NCBI RefSeq assembly: GCF_009914755.1
Contig: NC_060931.1
Source of the DNA: the human T2T-CHM13v2.0 reference genome, Homo sapiens
Reading direction: 5' to 3' (one strand)
Length of the DNA stretch: 64,000 nt
Shown: positions 58,774 through 63,688 of the stretch, in pieces
How positions within the stretch are numbered: the stretch's first letter is position 1
Layout: each line of letters starts with the position of its first letter
The notes under the pieces: generated by a model
The model's database searches: none
Told to the model about the DNA's origin: nothing
Seen by the model: the letters and a program-made list of their open reading frames with translations, nothing else
Made by a program: the position numbers and the translations under genes

Positions 58774-58953
58774 TTTTGTTGTTGTTGCTGTTGTTGTTAC
58801 GGAGTCTCACTCTGTCTTCTCAGTTCACTGCAACCTCTGCCTCCCGGATTCAAGCAATTCTCCTGCCTCAGCCTCCTGACTAGCTGGGATTACAGGCACA
58901 TGCCACCACGCCCAGCTAATTTTTATATTTTTAGCAGAGACAGGGTTTCTCCA
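58774..58953 (-). mobile_element. AluS 3' half, truncated at NUMT left junction
   Basis: Tail, right monomer and linker; ends gagacagggtttctcca. Confidence 0.9.
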
Positions 58954-59176
58954 GGGAGGTCAGTATAAGGGATCAGGTTTGCCTTTTAACATTGCAAATT
59001 ATTATTGTTTGTTTTAGTGCAAGCTGGGTTAGTCAATGTTGAATGGAAGTCAATCAGTTATTAATTAAATGACTGGGGGTTGGAAATAGCACAGTAGGAA
59101 ATAAAATGATTAATGTTACTACAGGTAGACCTAGAATTGTTGGGGTAGTAAAAGAGGCGAATAAATTTTCGTTCAT
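58954..59176 (-). pseudogene. MTATP6P: MT-ATP6 pseudogene, 5' ~74 codons
   Basis: rc translates [40 protein letters not shown]...QTWSLMLTS (mito code); truncated at the NUMT junction. Confidence 0.97.
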
Positions 59177-59603
59177 TTTAATTCTCGGGGGTTTCATGTT
59201 TCTGTGCTTTCATCGTTTTTGGTGTAGGGGGTAGGTGGTAAGTGAAATTTGATACTTTTAACTGGAGAATAGAGTTATAATTATCAGTAGGATAACCATG
59301 GACCATGTGGAATGTTGGGAGCAAGCCCCCCAAAATCTGGCCATAAACAAAATCTCTGCAGCACTGTGACATGTTCATAATGGCCCTAACATCCAAGCTG
59401 GAAGGTTGTGGGTTTACGGGAACGAGGGCAAGGAACACCTAGCCCGCCCAGGGCAGAAAACCACTTAAAGGCATTCTTAAGCTACAAACAAAAGCCTGAG
59501 CGATCTGTGTCTTAAGGGCATGTTCCTGCTGCAGTTAACTAGCCCACCTATTCAATTAATATAGGATAACAATGGACCATGTGGAAGTATCTAGTTGAGG
59601 CAT
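59131..59603 (-). pseudogene. MTATP8P: MT-ATP8 pseudogene interrupted by MER9 LTR
   Basis: ATG at 59603, MPQLDTSTWSIVIL; overlaps ATP6 start; 3' end approximate. Confidence 0.95.
59313..59560 (+). mobile_element. MER9 (HERV-K9/HML-3) LTR, 5' half only
   Basis: Starts TGTTGGGAGCAAGCCCCCCAAAATCTGGCCATAAACAAAATCTCTGCAGCACTGTGACATG, matching the MER9 5' end. Confidence 0.88.
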
Positions 59604-59604
59604 T

Positions 59605-59675
59605 TCACTATAGAGGGGGCTTAGATCTCCTCAGTCTTTAACTTAAAAGGTTGGTGCTAGATTAGCTTTACAGTG
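59605..59675 (-). pseudogene. mt-tRNA-Lys pseudogene (NUMT)
   Basis: rc CACTGTAAAGCTAATCTAGCACCAACCTTTTAAGTTAAAGA..., anticodon TTT. Confidence 0.95.
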
Positions 59676-60359
59676 ATATAGTGTAGATGTTGCTCAGGTT
59701 TCAAAGCATTTTAAGGGAACTAATTCTAGGATGATAAGTGTAAAACTGTGGTTGGACCCACAAATTTCTGAGCATTGGCCATAGTAAAGGCCTGGTCTTG
59801 TAGCAGTTAAAATGGTTTGATTTAAGCGTCCAGGGATTGCATCTGTTTTGAGGCCCGGTGACGGGATAGTTTGTGAGTGCAGGACGTCTTCAGATGAGAT
59901 TAATATACGAATAGGGATTTCTGTTGGGAGAATTGTTTGGTTACCAGCTTCAAGGAGTCGAAGTTCTCCTGGTTTTAAGTCTGTTGTTGGAGTCATGTAA
60001 GAATCGAAACTTACATCTTCATAGTCTGTATACTCATAGCTTCAGTATCATTGGTGGCCAGTTGTTTTGACAGTGAGGGACGGGCTATTAATTTCATCTG
60101 TCAAGTATAGAATACGAAGACAGGGGAGGACAATTAAGATCAGGATAATGGTGGGTAAAATAGCTCACATATTCTCGTTCTCTTGAGCATCTATAGTGCT
60201 AGCATGAGTTAATTTTGTTGTCAGCATTAGGGAAATAATATATAGGGCCAGGGAACTAATGAGGAAAAGAATTATAAGAGTGTGGTCATGGAAAGTGAGT
60301 AGTTCTTGTATAATAGGGGATGTAGCATCTTGGAGACCTAGCTGAAATAGATGAACTAT
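59676..60359 (-). pseudogene. MTCO2P: MT-CO2 pseudogene, full length (227 codons)
   Basis: [48 protein letters not shown]; no frameshift; AGA at codon 188, W163Q and M207T disable it. Confidence 0.98.
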
Positions 60360-60736
60360 TAAGATATATGGGGTTTAACCTACGAATTAACTTTGAAAAA
60401 GTTATGTAATAATTTTACTAATATCTTTTTTTGTTTTTTGAGATGGAGTCTCACTCTGTCCCCCAGGCTGGAGTGCAGTGGCACCGTCTCGGCTCACTGC
60501 AAGCTCCGCCTCCCAGGTTCACGCCATTCTCCTGCCTCAGCCTCCCGAGTAGCTGGGACTACAGGCGCCCGCCACCATGCCCAGCTAATTTTTTGTATTT
60601 TTAGTAGAGACGGGGTTTCACCGTGTTAGCCAGGATGGTTTCGATCTCCTGACCTTGTGATCCGCCCACCTCGGCCTCCCAAAGTGCTGGGATTACAGGC
60701 GTGAGCCACCGTGCCTGGCTATTTTACTAATATCTT
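60360..60736 (-). pseudogene. mt-tRNA-Asp pseudogene split by AluY
   Basis: rc AAGATATTAGTAAAAT[Alu]...TAACTTTTTCAAAGTTA...TATATCTTA; anticodon mutated GTC>TTC. Confidence 0.92.
60426..60719 (-). mobile_element. AluY in tRNA-Asp
   Basis: AluY diagnostics gcaagctccgcc, ttcacgccattctc; TSD attttactaatatctt (60412-60427 / 60721-60736). Confidence 0.95.
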
Positions 60737-60739
60737 GTA

Positions 60740-60808
60740 GAGAAAGTCATAGAAGTTATGGGATTGGCTTGAAACCAGTCTCTGGGAGTTCGATTCCTTC
60801 CTTTTTCC
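60740..60808 (+). pseudogene. mt-tRNA-Ser(UCN) pseudogene (NUMT)
   Basis: GAGAAAGTCATAG...TTGGCTTGAAACCAG...GTTCGATTCCTTCC, anticodon TGA. Confidence 0.95.
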
Positions 60809-60809
60809 T

Positions 60810-62690: not shown

Positions 62691-62748
62691 GTCCTGGGGT
62701 GATATCTCATATATTGAATTGCAAATTCAAAGGAGCAGCTTCAATCCT
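62690..62748 (+). pseudogene. mt-tRNA-Cys pseudogene, 3' end deleted
   Basis: AGTCCTGGGGTG...TTGAATTGCAAATTC...GCAGCTTCAATCC. Confidence 0.9.
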
Positions 62749-62768
62749 CCCCTAAACCGCGGGAGAAG
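62747..62768. other. Degenerate mitochondrial light-strand origin (OL) remnant
   Basis: CTCCC...GCGGGAGAAG between tRNA-Cys and tRNA-Asn; stem partly deleted. Confidence 0.8.
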
Positions 62769-62841
62769 TAGATTGAAGCCAGTTGACTAGAGTATTTAGC
62801 TGTTAACTGAATTTTCGTGGGTTTGGTCTCCACCAATCTAG
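62769..62841 (+). pseudogene. mt-tRNA-Asn pseudogene (NUMT)
   Basis: TAGATTGAAGCCAGTTGA...TTAGCTGTTAACT...CCAATCTAG. Confidence 0.95.
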
Positions 62842-62842
62842 C

Positions 62843-62909
62843 AAGGGCTTAGCTTAGTTAAAGTGGCTGATTTGCATTCAATCGATGCAGGATAGTCTTG
62901 CAATCCCTA
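62843..62909 (+). pseudogene. mt-tRNA-Ala pseudogene (NUMT)
   Basis: AAGGGCTTAGCTTAGTTAAAGTGGCTGATTTGCATTCA..., anticodon TGC. Confidence 0.95.
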
Positions 62910-62918
62910 GATTTGTTA

Positions 62919-63298
62919 CAGAAATTAAGTATAATTTACTTACTAAGGGCTTTGAAGGCTCTTGGTCTCATGTAACCTAAATTTCCTTTTTTTTTTTTGA
63001 GACGGAGTCTCACTCTGTCGCCCAGGATGGAGTGCAGTGGCGCGATCTCAGCTCACTGCAAGCTCCACCTCCCGGGTTCACACCATTCTCCTGCCTCAGC
63101 CTCCTGAGTAGCTGGGACAACAGGCACCCGCCACCATGCCCGGCTAATTTTTTTTTTGTATTTTTAGTAGAGACGGGGTTTCACTGTGTTAGCGAGGATG
63201 GTCTCGATCTCCTGACCTCGTGATCCGCCCGCCTCGGCCTCCCAAAGTGCTGGGATTACAGGCGTGAGCCACTGCGCCCGGCCGTAACCTAAATTTCT
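62919..63298 (-). pseudogene. mt-tRNA-Trp pseudogene split by AluY
   Basis: rc AGAAATTTAGGTTAC[Alu]ATGAGACCAAGAGCCTTCAAAGCCCT...TTAATTTCTG. Confidence 0.95.
62986..63283 (-). mobile_element. AluY in tRNA-Trp
   Basis: AluY diagnostics; TSD gtaacctaaatttc (62972-62985 / 63284-63297). Confidence 0.95.
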
Positions 63299-63580
63299 AA
63301 GTCATAGTCAGTAGCAGCGGAGAGATAGGTAGGAGGAGGGTGGAAGAGATAATAAGTGAAGATACGAATAGTATAGGTTTTGTGTTTTCAAGCTATCATT
63401 TTATTTTCGTGTTACTGGATGTGGGAATAGTTTTATTGGGGTGAAATAAATTAGGCATATATAGAAGTATAGGTTGAGTAAAGCTATAATAGCTATAATA
63501 GTTGGGGTAATAAGGCTGTTATTTTTTGTAAATTCTTGAATGATAGCTCATTTAGGCAAAAATCCTGTTAATGGGGATAA
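63299..63580 (-). pseudogene. MTND2P: MT-ND2 pseudogene, 3' part
   Basis: rc translates [38 protein letters not shown]. Confidence 0.96.
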
Positions 63581-63588
63581 CATATACT

Positions 63589-63688
63589 GGTTTCGCCAGG
63601 CTGGTCTTGAACTTCTGACCTCAAGTGATCCACCCTTCTCGGCTTCCCAAAGTGCTGGGATTACAGGTGCGAGCCACCGCACCCGGCT
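63589..63688 (-). mobile_element. AluSz/Sx 5' part, truncated at NUMT right junction
   Basis: gccaggctggtcttgaac...gacctcaagtgatcc...gccaccgcacccggc. Confidence 0.9.

What the first reader, a model, noticed from the sequence alone, without database searches (positions are those of the whole stretch)
58774..63688. The whole NUMT appears to sit inside one split AluS
Seen: the left flank is a minus-strand Alu that stops at ...gagacagggtttctcca (58953). The right flank resumes on the same strand at gccaggctggtcttgaac (63595). In the Alu consensus these points are separated only by 'tgttg'. A short filler catatactggtttc (63581-63594) repeats ggtttc from the left junction. Both halves look AluSx/Sz. 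Inference: mtDNA, or a copy of an older NUMT, was captured at a break inside an existing AluS by end-joining with a small deletion and templated filler. That caps the age of the insertion at the AluS era. Caveat: I could not find a clean TSD around the rejoined Alu.
Basis: partly seen in the sequence, partly recalled or inferred. Interest (0 to 1): 0.7.

Follow-up and report, generated by a model that had tools for sequence, protein, structure and literature searches.

The report
Old mitochondrial insert splitting one Alu
A 4.6-kb piece of ancient mitochondrial DNA was pasted into the middle of one pre-existing Alu repeat; this is an ordinary kind of repair scar, but it shows the insertion happened in primates, later than one published catalogue says.

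Summary
Window 58774-58953 and 63595-63688 (minus strand) are the 3' and 5' parts of one S-type Alu. In Alu coordinates they abut, and only 5 bases (CAACA in Alu sense) are missing. Both parts are equally diverged (11.7% and 12.1%). A decayed target-site duplication brackets the pair.

The sequence between them, 58954-63580, is a NUMT running from ND2 codon 254 to about ATP6 codon 74. One base overlaps at the left junction. A 14-base filler (63581-63594) sits at the right junction.

Capture of mtDNA at a break by end joining is the best explanation. "Templated filler" is only weakly supported.

After insertion the NUMT received two AluY, one Y-like Alu and a 248-bp LTR fragment.

The mitochondrial sequence is archaic: its COX2 is closer to non-primate COX2 than to human COX2. 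Its nuclear decay is mostly like other pre-rhesus NUMTs.

A published table (Tsuji 2012) lists what is almost certainly this NUMT as older than the human-mouse split. The Alu host contradicts that.

It is a known kind of event and of low to moderate interest.

The parts
58750..58777 (-). candidate decayed target-site duplication of the host Alu, copy next to the A-rich tail
   Evidence: Gapped local alignment with 63689-63710 scores 21. Shuffles give 13.1 +/- 2.3 and reach the score 5 of 3000 times; random window 23-mers reach it 24 of 3000 times. One copy has 7 extra bases.
58774..58953 (-). host S-type Alu, 3' part: from TGGAGAAACC through the right arm to an A-rich tail interrupted by other bases. 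It carries an internal deletion of about 26 bases.
   Evidence: It differs from the window's S consensus at 16 of 132 sites (12.1%; non-CpG 9 of 115). It has the S state at 14 of 21 S-vs-J columns and at 5 of 7 S-vs-Y columns.
58953..58953 (.). left junction: one base that fits both the Alu and the mtDNA (1-base overlap)
   Evidence: (nine paralogous NUMTs).
58954..63580 (-). NUMT, 4627 bases, of which about 3.43 kb is mt-derived. Gene order: ND2 from codon 254, tRNA cluster, COI, tRNA-Ser(UCN), tRNA-Asp region, COII, tRNA-Lys region, ATP8, ATP6 to about codon 74.
   Evidence: ND2 residues 254-306; ATP6 residues 1-62; COX2 residues 1-187; COX1 C-terminal part; tRNAs at 60740-60808 and 62624-62690; RefSeq MTCO1P25 and MTCO2P25. 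Tsuji 2012 table row: mt 5234-8742, minus strand.
59313..59560 (+). nested 248-base piece: the first half of a roughly 490-base LTR of an endogenous retrovirus family, flanked by a 25-base duplication of the NUMT (59288-59312 and 59562-59586, 24 of 25 identical), with no poly(A)
60428..60719 (-). nested AluY with 16-base target-site duplication (60412-60427 and 60721-60736)
   Evidence: It has the Y state at 11 of 12 S-vs-Y columns and differs from the Y consensus at 4.5% of sites. That consensus was built from 4 sequences including this one.
61707..62000 (+). nested Y-like Alu inside COI with a target-site duplication of up to 16 bases (61692-61707 and 61995-62010)
   Evidence: It has the Y state at 9 of 12 S-vs-Y columns. 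It differs by 7.5% from the Y consensus and by 9.6% from the S consensus.
62985..63283 (-). nested AluY with 14-base target-site duplication (62972-62985 and 63284-63297)
   Evidence: It has the Y state at 12 of 12 S-vs-Y columns and differs from the Y consensus at 3.4% of sites. That consensus was built from 4 sequences including this one.
63581..63594 (.). 14-base filler at the right junction, neither colinear mtDNA nor colinear Alu; origin unresolved
63595..63688 (-). host S-type Alu, 5' part (left arm up to ...CCTGGC)
   Evidence: It differs from the S consensus at 11 of 94 sites (11.7%; non-CpG 7 of 80). It has the S state at 7 of 10 S-vs-J columns and at 2 of 3 S-vs-Y columns.
63689..63710 (-). 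candidate decayed target-site duplication of the host Alu, copy abutting the Alu 5' end and preceded by an A18 run in Alu sense
   Evidence: sequence.

Best explanation
An S-type Alu retrotransposed into this site first, leaving a now-decayed target-site duplication. Later, in an early anthropoid ancestor, the chromosome broke inside that Alu, between ...CCTGGC and TGGTGAAACC in Alu sense. A linear mtDNA fragment of about 3.5 kb (ND2 codon 254 to about ATP6 codon 74) was ligated into the break by non-homologous end joining.

Five Alu bases were lost. The left junction used 0-1 base of overlap. The right junction acquired 14 extra bases.

The insert then decayed as neutral nuclear DNA. It was later hit by a Y-like Alu, two AluY elements and a 248-base LTR fragment.

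Shown:
- the anatomy;
- the order host Alu, then NUMT, then nested elements;
- the junction structure;
- the archaic state of the mt sequence.

Inferred:
- the repair pathway;
- direct capture of mtDNA rather than of a nuclear copy;
- the absolute date (after S-type Alus arose; probably before, or around, crown anthropoids).
For: One Alu:
- The halves cover query 4-103 and 104-240 of a full Alu on one strand.
- Only CAACA is missing against the consensus of 30 window Alus.
- Both halves are S-type. They are 11.7% and 12.1% from the S consensus, against a mean of 12.4% for the window's 32 S-type Alus.
- A decayed duplication sits exactly where the rejoined element's target-site duplication should be (5 of 3000 shuffles; 24 of 3000 random window 23-mers).

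NUMT ends are fixed to the base by 7 and 9 paralogous NUMTs and by genome-wide matches.

End-joining features: no duplication of the target around the NUMT, no poly(A), a 1-base overlap, a small deletion and extra bases. These lie within the spectrum described for primate NUMTs. In that study 41 of 90 insertions deleted chromosomal bases, mostly few (PMC2567098, passages read).

Order of events: the nested Alus have intact 14-16-base duplications and lower divergence (3.4%, 4.5%, 7.5%) than the host.

Direct capture:
- The best paralogue in 861 bases of COI is 83% identical, among 39 non-self matches.
- Private changes at conserved COI second codon positions are 11 of 264 (4.2%). Seven NUMTs that the same published table dates 'after mouse, before rhesus' (my matching of loci to table rows) show 1.9-5.6%.
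- There are no indels in COI or COII.
- The COX2 frame is open over 227 codons with one stop.
Against: - No pre-insertion allele or other primate genome could be examined. The 5-base loss is therefore read against a consensus, not against the real empty site.
- The candidate target-site duplication needs a 7-base indel. Its alignment parameters were chosen after seeing the sequence.
- COII second-position private changes are higher in this NUMT (17 of 217, 7.8%) than in six others (3.3-5.4%). This may reflect real COX2 replacements in the mt lineage or a longer nuclear stay.
- The terminal branch in the COI tree is about twice that of neighbouring NUMTs (0.163 against 0.06-0.085).
- The published tree-based age for this NUMT is 'before mouse'.
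- The Y consensus used for the nested Alus was built from 4 sequences that include two of them, so their divergences are underestimates.
Confidence: 0.88

Rival explanations
1. The inserted DNA was not mtDNA itself but a copy of an older nuclear NUMT, moved into the Alu by break repair or duplication. The mt sequence could then be older than the Alu.
For: - The published age class is 'o'.
- COX2 and the ATP6 N-terminus are closer to non-primate proteins than to human. COX2 scores 306-315 bits against eight non-human mammalian sequences and 269 against the human entry. ATP6 gives E 4e-21 for the best non-human chain and 6.9e-17 for the human chain.
- The terminal branch is long.
- The COII second-position excess is 7.8% against 3.3-5.4%.
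Against: - No donor exists in the assembly. The best COI paralogue is 83% identical.
- COI second-position decay (4.2%) equals that of NUMTs of the post-mouse, pre-rhesus class.
- There are no indels in 861 + 684 bases, whereas the other NUMTs have 0-6 in COI (only one other has none) and 1-4 in COII.
- Other NUMTs of that class also carry the archaic COX2 type, so archaic COX2 does not require a pre-primate origin.
- The ND2 fragment scores best against human (73 bits against 59-68).
Confidence: 0.07
2. Two unrelated truncated Alus happen to flank the NUMT, or the NUMT landed between two Alus.
For: The window is Alu-rich (75 Alu HSPs). Retrotransposons are very common within 1 kb of NUMTs (PMC3467031).
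Against: - Same strand, with complementary coverage (4-103 and 104-240).
- Truncations lie exactly at the NUMT ends.
- Equal divergence and the same type.
- The only poly(A)-type tail and the only 5' end are at the outer edges, with a matching decayed duplication.
Confidence: 0.02
3. The break was an L1-endonuclease nick and the NUMT entered by a retrotransposition-linked route, as speculated for many primate NUMTs in PMC3467031.
For: That paper's circumstantial argument.
Against: - The break point inside the Alu (...GGTTTCTCCA / TGTTG / GCCAGG... on +) has no TTTT/AA-like site.
- The NUMT has no poly(A) and no flanking duplication.
- Bases were lost, not duplicated.
Confidence: 0.03

Closest known systems
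NUMT insertion by non-homologous end joining at chromosomal breaks (Hazkani-Covo and Covo 2008, PMC2567098; abstract and passages read)
   Same: Insert without a duplication or poly(A), blunt or 1-base-overlap junction, loss of a few chromosomal bases, extra bases at a junction.
   Different: That study compared filled and empty alleles of young (human- or chimpanzee-specific) NUMTs, and dropped fusion points with more than 5 non-templated bases. Here the event is tens of millions of years old, the empty site is only inferred from an Alu consensus, and the filler is 14 bases.
NUMTs lying within a retrotransposon (Tsuji et al. 2012, PMC3467031; passages, section 14 and supplementary files 2-3 read)
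   Same: A NUMT straddled by the two parts of one retrotransposon. The paper reports 10 such cases among 557 NUMTs that lie within 1 kb of a retrotransposon.
   Different: The 10 cases are not listed in what I could read, so I cannot tell whether this is one of them. The paper's table dates this NUMT 'before mouse', which the Alu host contradicts.
Burst of NUMT fixation around 54 million years ago, parallel to Alu expansion (Gherman et al. 2007, PMC1925129; abstract and passages read)
   Same: A long (>1 kb) NUMT with pre-anthropoid-type mt genes embedded in Alu-rich DNA fits that period.
   Different: That work treated Alu and NUMT histories as independent. Here one is physically nested in the other, which gives a direct order of events.
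Nested-insertion stratigraphy of transposons (TinT), as used for tarsier SINEs in PMC5059674 (passages read)
   Same: Relative dating from which element interrupts which.
   Different: Applied here to a single NUMT with one older host and four younger guests, not statistically over a genome.
Templated insertions of polymerase-theta-mediated end joining (recalled from general knowledge; no paper read here)
   Same: Twelve of the 14 filler bases match two short stretches within 14 bases of the other junction, one direct and one inverted.
   Different: Support is weak: 236 of 20000 shuffles and 598 of 20000 random window 14-mers do as well. A 9-base identity to the NUMT's own tRNA-Ser(UCN) region is an equally good chance-level alternative.

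Membership tests
NUMT (nuclear copy of mitochondrial DNA) | Colinear homology to a contiguous stretch of the mitochondrial genome, readable with the vertebrate mitochondrial code | tested here: met
   ND2 254-306, COX1 C-terminal part, COX2 1-187 and a full 227-codon frame, ATP6 1-62, and two tRNAs at the expected places and strands. The order is ND2-COI-COII-ATP8/6 on the minus strand.
NUMT (nuclear copy of mitochondrial DNA) | Embedded in nuclear chromosomal sequence and decaying (stops, interruptions) | tested here: met
   Flanked by Alu and unique chr7 sequence. One in-frame stop in COX2. Four nested repeats.
Alu, S-type subfamily (host element) | Both pieces align end to end to one dimeric Alu, with a 5' end and an A-rich tail at the outer edges | tested here: met
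   About 26 bases of the right arm are deleted.
Alu, S-type subfamily (host element) | Subfamily-diagnostic positions of S rather than J or Y | tested here: met
   Against consensuses built from the window's own Alus (J n=15, S n=32, Y n=4): S vs J 7 of 10 and 14 of 21; S vs Y 2 of 3 and 5 of 7. The labels J, S and Y rest on my recall of the families, not on a reference library. Sx versus Sz was not resolved.
Alu, S-type subfamily (host element) | Target-site duplication flanking the whole element | tested here: inconclusive
   A decayed 22/28-base candidate with a 7-base indel; 5 of 3000 shuffles and 24 of 3000 random 23-mers reach its score. A stricter ungapped-style alignment was not significant (156 of 2000).
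End-joining capture of DNA at a double-strand break | No target duplication around the insert; 0-few bases of overlap; small deletion and/or added bases | tested here: met
   The deletion is inferred from a consensus.
End-joining capture of DNA at a double-strand break | Empty (pre-insertion) allele in a related genome | not testable with these tools
   Only the human assembly is held. No primate genomes are available.
Templated (polymerase-theta-type) filler | Filler copied from sequence close to the break | tested here: inconclusive
   Twelve of 14 bases are covered by a 7-mer (inverted, 58961-58967) and a 6-mer (direct, 58944-58949). P is about 0.012-0.03 by two nulls. The single 6-mer alone gives 33%.
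L1-endonuclease-dependent insertion | TTTT/AA-like nick site, target duplication, poly(A) | tested here: not met
   None of the three is present at the NUMT junctions.

The most novel reading that the evidence does not exclude
The filler records the order and pathway of repair. Its two halves were copied, one inverted and one direct, from either side of the already-formed left junction. If so, the left Alu end was joined to the mtDNA first. The right junction was then closed by a template-switching (polymerase-theta-type) polymerase while both junctions were held together. That would be a fossil of alternative end joining in a roughly 50-million-year-old germline NUMT capture.

Separately, the nesting shows that S-type Alus were already moving while the mt genome still had its pre-anthropoid COX2. 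It also shows that tree-based 'pre-mouse' NUMT ages can be artefacts.
Probability: 0.15. Interest if true: 0.45.

Novelty: new member of a known kind. Interest (0 to 1): 0.25.

Why it matters
As a mechanism it is ordinary: NUMTs are known to fill chromosomal breaks by end joining.

Two points give it some value.
- According to Tsuji et al. 2012, NUMTs inside a retrotransposon are rare (10 of 557). This is a clean, fully resolved example with host, insert and four later guests.
- The Alu host gives a hard upper bound on the insertion date that does not depend on any tree: after S-type Alus arose in primates. That contradicts the 'older than the human-mouse split' class the same paper gives to what I identify as this NUMT.

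The likely reason for the misplacement is that the NUMT preserves slow-evolving, pre-acceleration mt genes, while anthropoid mtDNA sits on a long branch. If the same error affects others of the 156 NUMTs in that class, published age spectra of human NUMTs are skewed. Checking nested repeats would be a cheap audit.

Tried and rejected
- Subfamily typing by short recalled Alu motifs with mismatches gave overlapping, useless labels. It was dropped.
- Average-linkage clustering of the 52 window Alus did not separate subfamilies.
- Iterative re-assignment let the Y seed group swallow S elements. I replaced it with a fixed 4-member Y group.
- An ungapped-style search for a target-site duplication mostly aligned poly(A) and was not significant (156 of 2000 shuffles).
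- A second tiny mt fragment as the source of the filler: 12 of 14 bases, including 9 contiguous, match the NUMT's tRNA-Ser(UCN) region on the opposite strand. About 1.15 such hits are expected by chance in the 179 kb searched (my calculation), so this is not evidence.
- A near-modern human mt proxy (the chr1 NUMT of class 'f') did not appear in the genome searches, and chrM is not among the 24 contigs. Human-versus-NUMT comparison therefore rests on PDB proteins only.
- I tried to fetch a class-'o' NUMT on chr1 as a comparator by guessing its T2T position. Six 10-kb stretches were fetched. They held, apart from one weak 87-base match (75% identity) just outside a nested Alu, only Alu matches, so there is no comparator.
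- Literature: 'MTCO1P25' gave 0 papers. 'numt' with 'into an Alu' gave 0 papers. 'MTCO2P25' gave 1 paper, which uses it only as the nearest gene name for a candidate imprint region 96.7 kb away.
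Full report
**1. What is in the sequence**

- On the plus strand, a reverse-oriented Alu runs from an A-rich tail (seen as T-rich at 58774-58798) to ...GGTTTCTCCA at 58953.
- A second reverse-oriented Alu piece runs from GCCAGGCTGG at 63595 to the Alu 5' end at 63688.
- Between them lie 4,627 bases that read, on the minus strand, as mitochondrial genes.

**2. The two Alu pieces are one element**

- I used a full-length AluY nested in the NUMT as a BLAST query against the window (75 HSPs). 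The right piece matched query 4-103 (63687-63586). The left piece matched query 104-240 (58949-58818) on the same strand.
- In a MAFFT alignment with 30 full-length Alus of the window, the 5' piece ends at ...CCTGGC and the 3' piece begins at TGGAGAAACC.
- I built J-, S- and Y-type consensuses from the window's own Alus (15, 32 and 4 members). The labels are my recall of the families.
  - Both pieces carry mainly S states: 7 of 10 and 14 of 21 at S-versus-J columns, and 2 of 3 and 5 of 7 at S-versus-Y columns.
  - They are equally diverged from the S consensus: 11 of 94 (11.7%) and 16 of 132 (12.1%), or 8.7% and 7.8% outside CpG.
  - These values match the window's S-type mean of 12.4% and 8.5%.
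- Sx versus Sz could not be resolved without a reference library.
- The 3' piece has an internal deletion of about 26 bases.

**3. A decayed target-site duplication**

Allowing gaps, the 22 bases that abut the Alu 5' end (63689-63710) align with the 28 bases that start at the end of the A-rich tail (58750-58777), with one 7-base indel. The score is 21. Shuffles give 13.1 +/- 2.3 and reach 21 in 5 of 3000 trials. Random window 23-mers reach it in 24 of 3000.

The 5' copy begins in an A18 run, as L1-mediated insertions usually do (general knowledge). A stricter alignment was not significant (156 of 2000), and the parameters were chosen post hoc. I therefore count this as supportive, not proof.

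**4. The NUMT and its exact ends**

Right end:
- Among 40 scored genome matches to 63300-63700, 1 was self.
- None of the 24 NUMT-type matches passed window 63580.
- The 15 Alu-type matches began at 63589-63598.
- Seven paralogous NUMTs continue beyond that point with a shared mt sequence that the window lacks.

Left end:
- Of 41 matches, 1 was self, 21 were NUMT-type and 19 were Alu-type.
- Among the NUMT-type matches, 15 begin at 58953, 2 one base earlier, and 4 further inside.
- Nine paralogues diverge from the window right after ...TCCCT.

Base 58953 fits both the Alu and the mtDNA, so the overlap is 1 base.

Translated with the vertebrate mitochondrial code:
- The right end is ND2 residues 254-306.
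- The left end is ATP6 residues 1-62, and the frame continues to about residue 74.
- COX2 is an open 227-codon frame with a single stop.
- ARAGORN and Rfam find tRNAs at 60740-60808 and 62624-62690.

**5. The filler**

The 14 bases at 63581-63594 match neither the continuing mtDNA (5 of 14 identities to the proxies, my count) nor the colinear Alu.

A 6-mer match to the 4 x 30 bases around the junctions occurs in 6660 of 20000 shuffled fillers, so it is uninformative alone.
- I also found TATACTG, the reverse complement of 58961-58967, on the mt side of the left junction.
- Together the two words cover 12 of 14 bases. That coverage was reached by 236 of 20000 shuffles and by 598 of 20000 random window 14-mers.
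- Alternatively, 12 of 14 bases (9 contiguous) match the NUMT's own tRNA-Ser(UCN) region in inverted orientation. This is at chance level for the sequence searched.

The origin of the filler is unresolved.

**6. Order of events**

Four later insertions sit inside the NUMT, each with its own duplication:

| Element | Position | Duplication | Divergence |
|---|---|---|---|
| AluY | 62985-63283 | 14 bases | 3.4% |
| Y-like Alu | 61707-62000 | up to 16 bases | 7.5% from Y, 9.6% from S |
| AluY | 60428-60719 | 16 bases | 4.5% |
| LTR fragment | 59313-59560 | 25 bases (24 of 25 identical) | not measured |

The Y consensus included two of these Alus, so their values are underestimates. The order host Alu (12%), then NUMT, then nested elements is consistent.

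**7. mtDNA or a copy of an older NUMT?**

- No donor is present. The best of 39 non-self matches to 861 bases of COI is 83% identical.
- I aligned that COI stretch with 21 other human NUMTs. Their majority consensus is an intact COX1 reading frame.
- Changes private to one NUMT at conserved second codon positions should mostly be nuclear decay.
  - This NUMT has 11 of 264 (4.2%).
  - Seven NUMTs that I matched by chromosome, position and mt range to rows of Tsuji's table, all of class 'a' (after mouse, before rhesus), have 1.9-5.6%.
  - One matched to a class 'c' row has 0.7%.
  - This NUMT has no indels there. The others have 0-6, and only one of them has none.
- In COII the picture is less clean. 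This NUMT has 17 of 217 (7.8%) against 3.3-5.4% in six others, again with no indels against 1-4.
- In an ML tree of 17 long COI copies it attaches in the poorly resolved deep cluster of class-'a' NUMTs, with a terminal branch of 0.163 against 0.06-0.085. The excess is at first and third positions: 7.5% and 15.4% private changes. That pattern indicates extra mitochondrial-phase evolution, not extra nuclear decay.
- Its COX2 is of the archaic mammalian type.
  - It scores 306-315 bits against eight non-human mammalian COX2 sequences in the PDB and 269 against the human one (organisms recalled from entry codes).
  - The class-'a' NUMTs share most of this archaic type.
- The ND2 fragment scores slightly best against human (73 bits against 59-68).

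I conclude that the source was an early primate-lineage mtDNA, somewhat older than that of the main NUMT cluster. Nothing requires a long earlier stay elsewhere in the nucleus, though a short one cannot be excluded.

**8. Comparison with print**

- Tsuji et al. 2012 (PMC3467031), supplementary file 3, lists hg18 chr7:68432903-68437517, mt 5234-8742, minus strand, unique, age 'o'.
  - Its length (4,615), strand and mt span match this NUMT.
  - The identification is by these features only; no liftover was possible.
  - Section 14 defines 'o' as 'before mouse (outgroup)'. Table S3 counts 156 such NUMTs.
  - An insertion into a dimeric, primate-specific Alu cannot predate the human-mouse split. 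Alu is called primate-specific in PMC1925129.
- The same paper states that only 10 of 557 NUMTs near retrotransposons lie within one. The 10 are not listed in what I read.
- Gherman et al. 2007 date 75-80% of long NUMTs to within 10 million years of 54 million years ago, parallel to Alu expansion. This fits.
- Hazkani-Covo and Covo 2008 describe the junction spectrum of primate NUMTs as classical end joining, with deletions in 41 of 90 events.
- I found no paper that describes this NUMT's Alu host.

**9. Verdict**

It is a known kind of event.

The added value is threefold:
- a fully resolved five-layer insertion history;
- a likely target-site duplication;
- a hard age cap that conflicts with a published age class.

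The orthologous site in other primates remains the decisive check and could not be done here.

Noticed in passing
window 59288-59586: A 248-base insert in ATP8 (59313-59560) is the first half of a roughly 490-base LTR of an endogenous retrovirus family. The genome search gave 1148 first-look candidates, and the copies are 87-93% identical. Pairs 5.5-6.7 kb apart on chr5 and chr12 look like the two LTRs of proviruses. The insert is flanked by a 25-base duplication of the NUMT (24 of 25 identical) and has no poly(A). That fits neither integrase (4-6 bases) nor ordinary L1-mediated insertion. It may be a second capture of stray DNA at a staggered break. The family name was not determined.
   Followed up: partly
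window 59676-60359 (minus): The COX2 reading frame of this old NUMT is still open over 227 codons, with one stop (AGA at codon 188) and no indel. The 861 bases of COI analysed also have no indel. Of the 21 other NUMT copies compared in COI, two also have none and 19 have 1-6; in COII six other NUMTs have 1-4.
   Followed up: partly
Tsuji 2012 supplementary table (PMC3467031), class 'o': If this NUMT is mis-dated as pre-mouse, others of the 156 'o' entries may be too. Several 'o' rows sit next to 'a' rows of the same locus (for example chr1:94.16 Mb and chr2:202-203 Mb).
   Followed up: no
window 63706-63725: A run of 18 T (A18 in Alu sense) lies 17 bases outside the host Alu's 5' end, at the start of the candidate target-site duplication. 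It could be the A-rich L1 nick site or the tail of another, unrecognised element.
   Followed up: no
own assembly G000: The assembly held has 24 contigs and no mitochondrial contig. The well-known recent chr1 NUMT (class 'f' in Tsuji's table) did not appear in two searches where it should have ranked high.
   Followed up: no
window 1-58000: The window is very Alu-dense. There are 52 near-full-length Alus in 64 kb, roughly 15 J-type, about 32 S-type and 4-5 Y-type by my grouping.
   Followed up: partly
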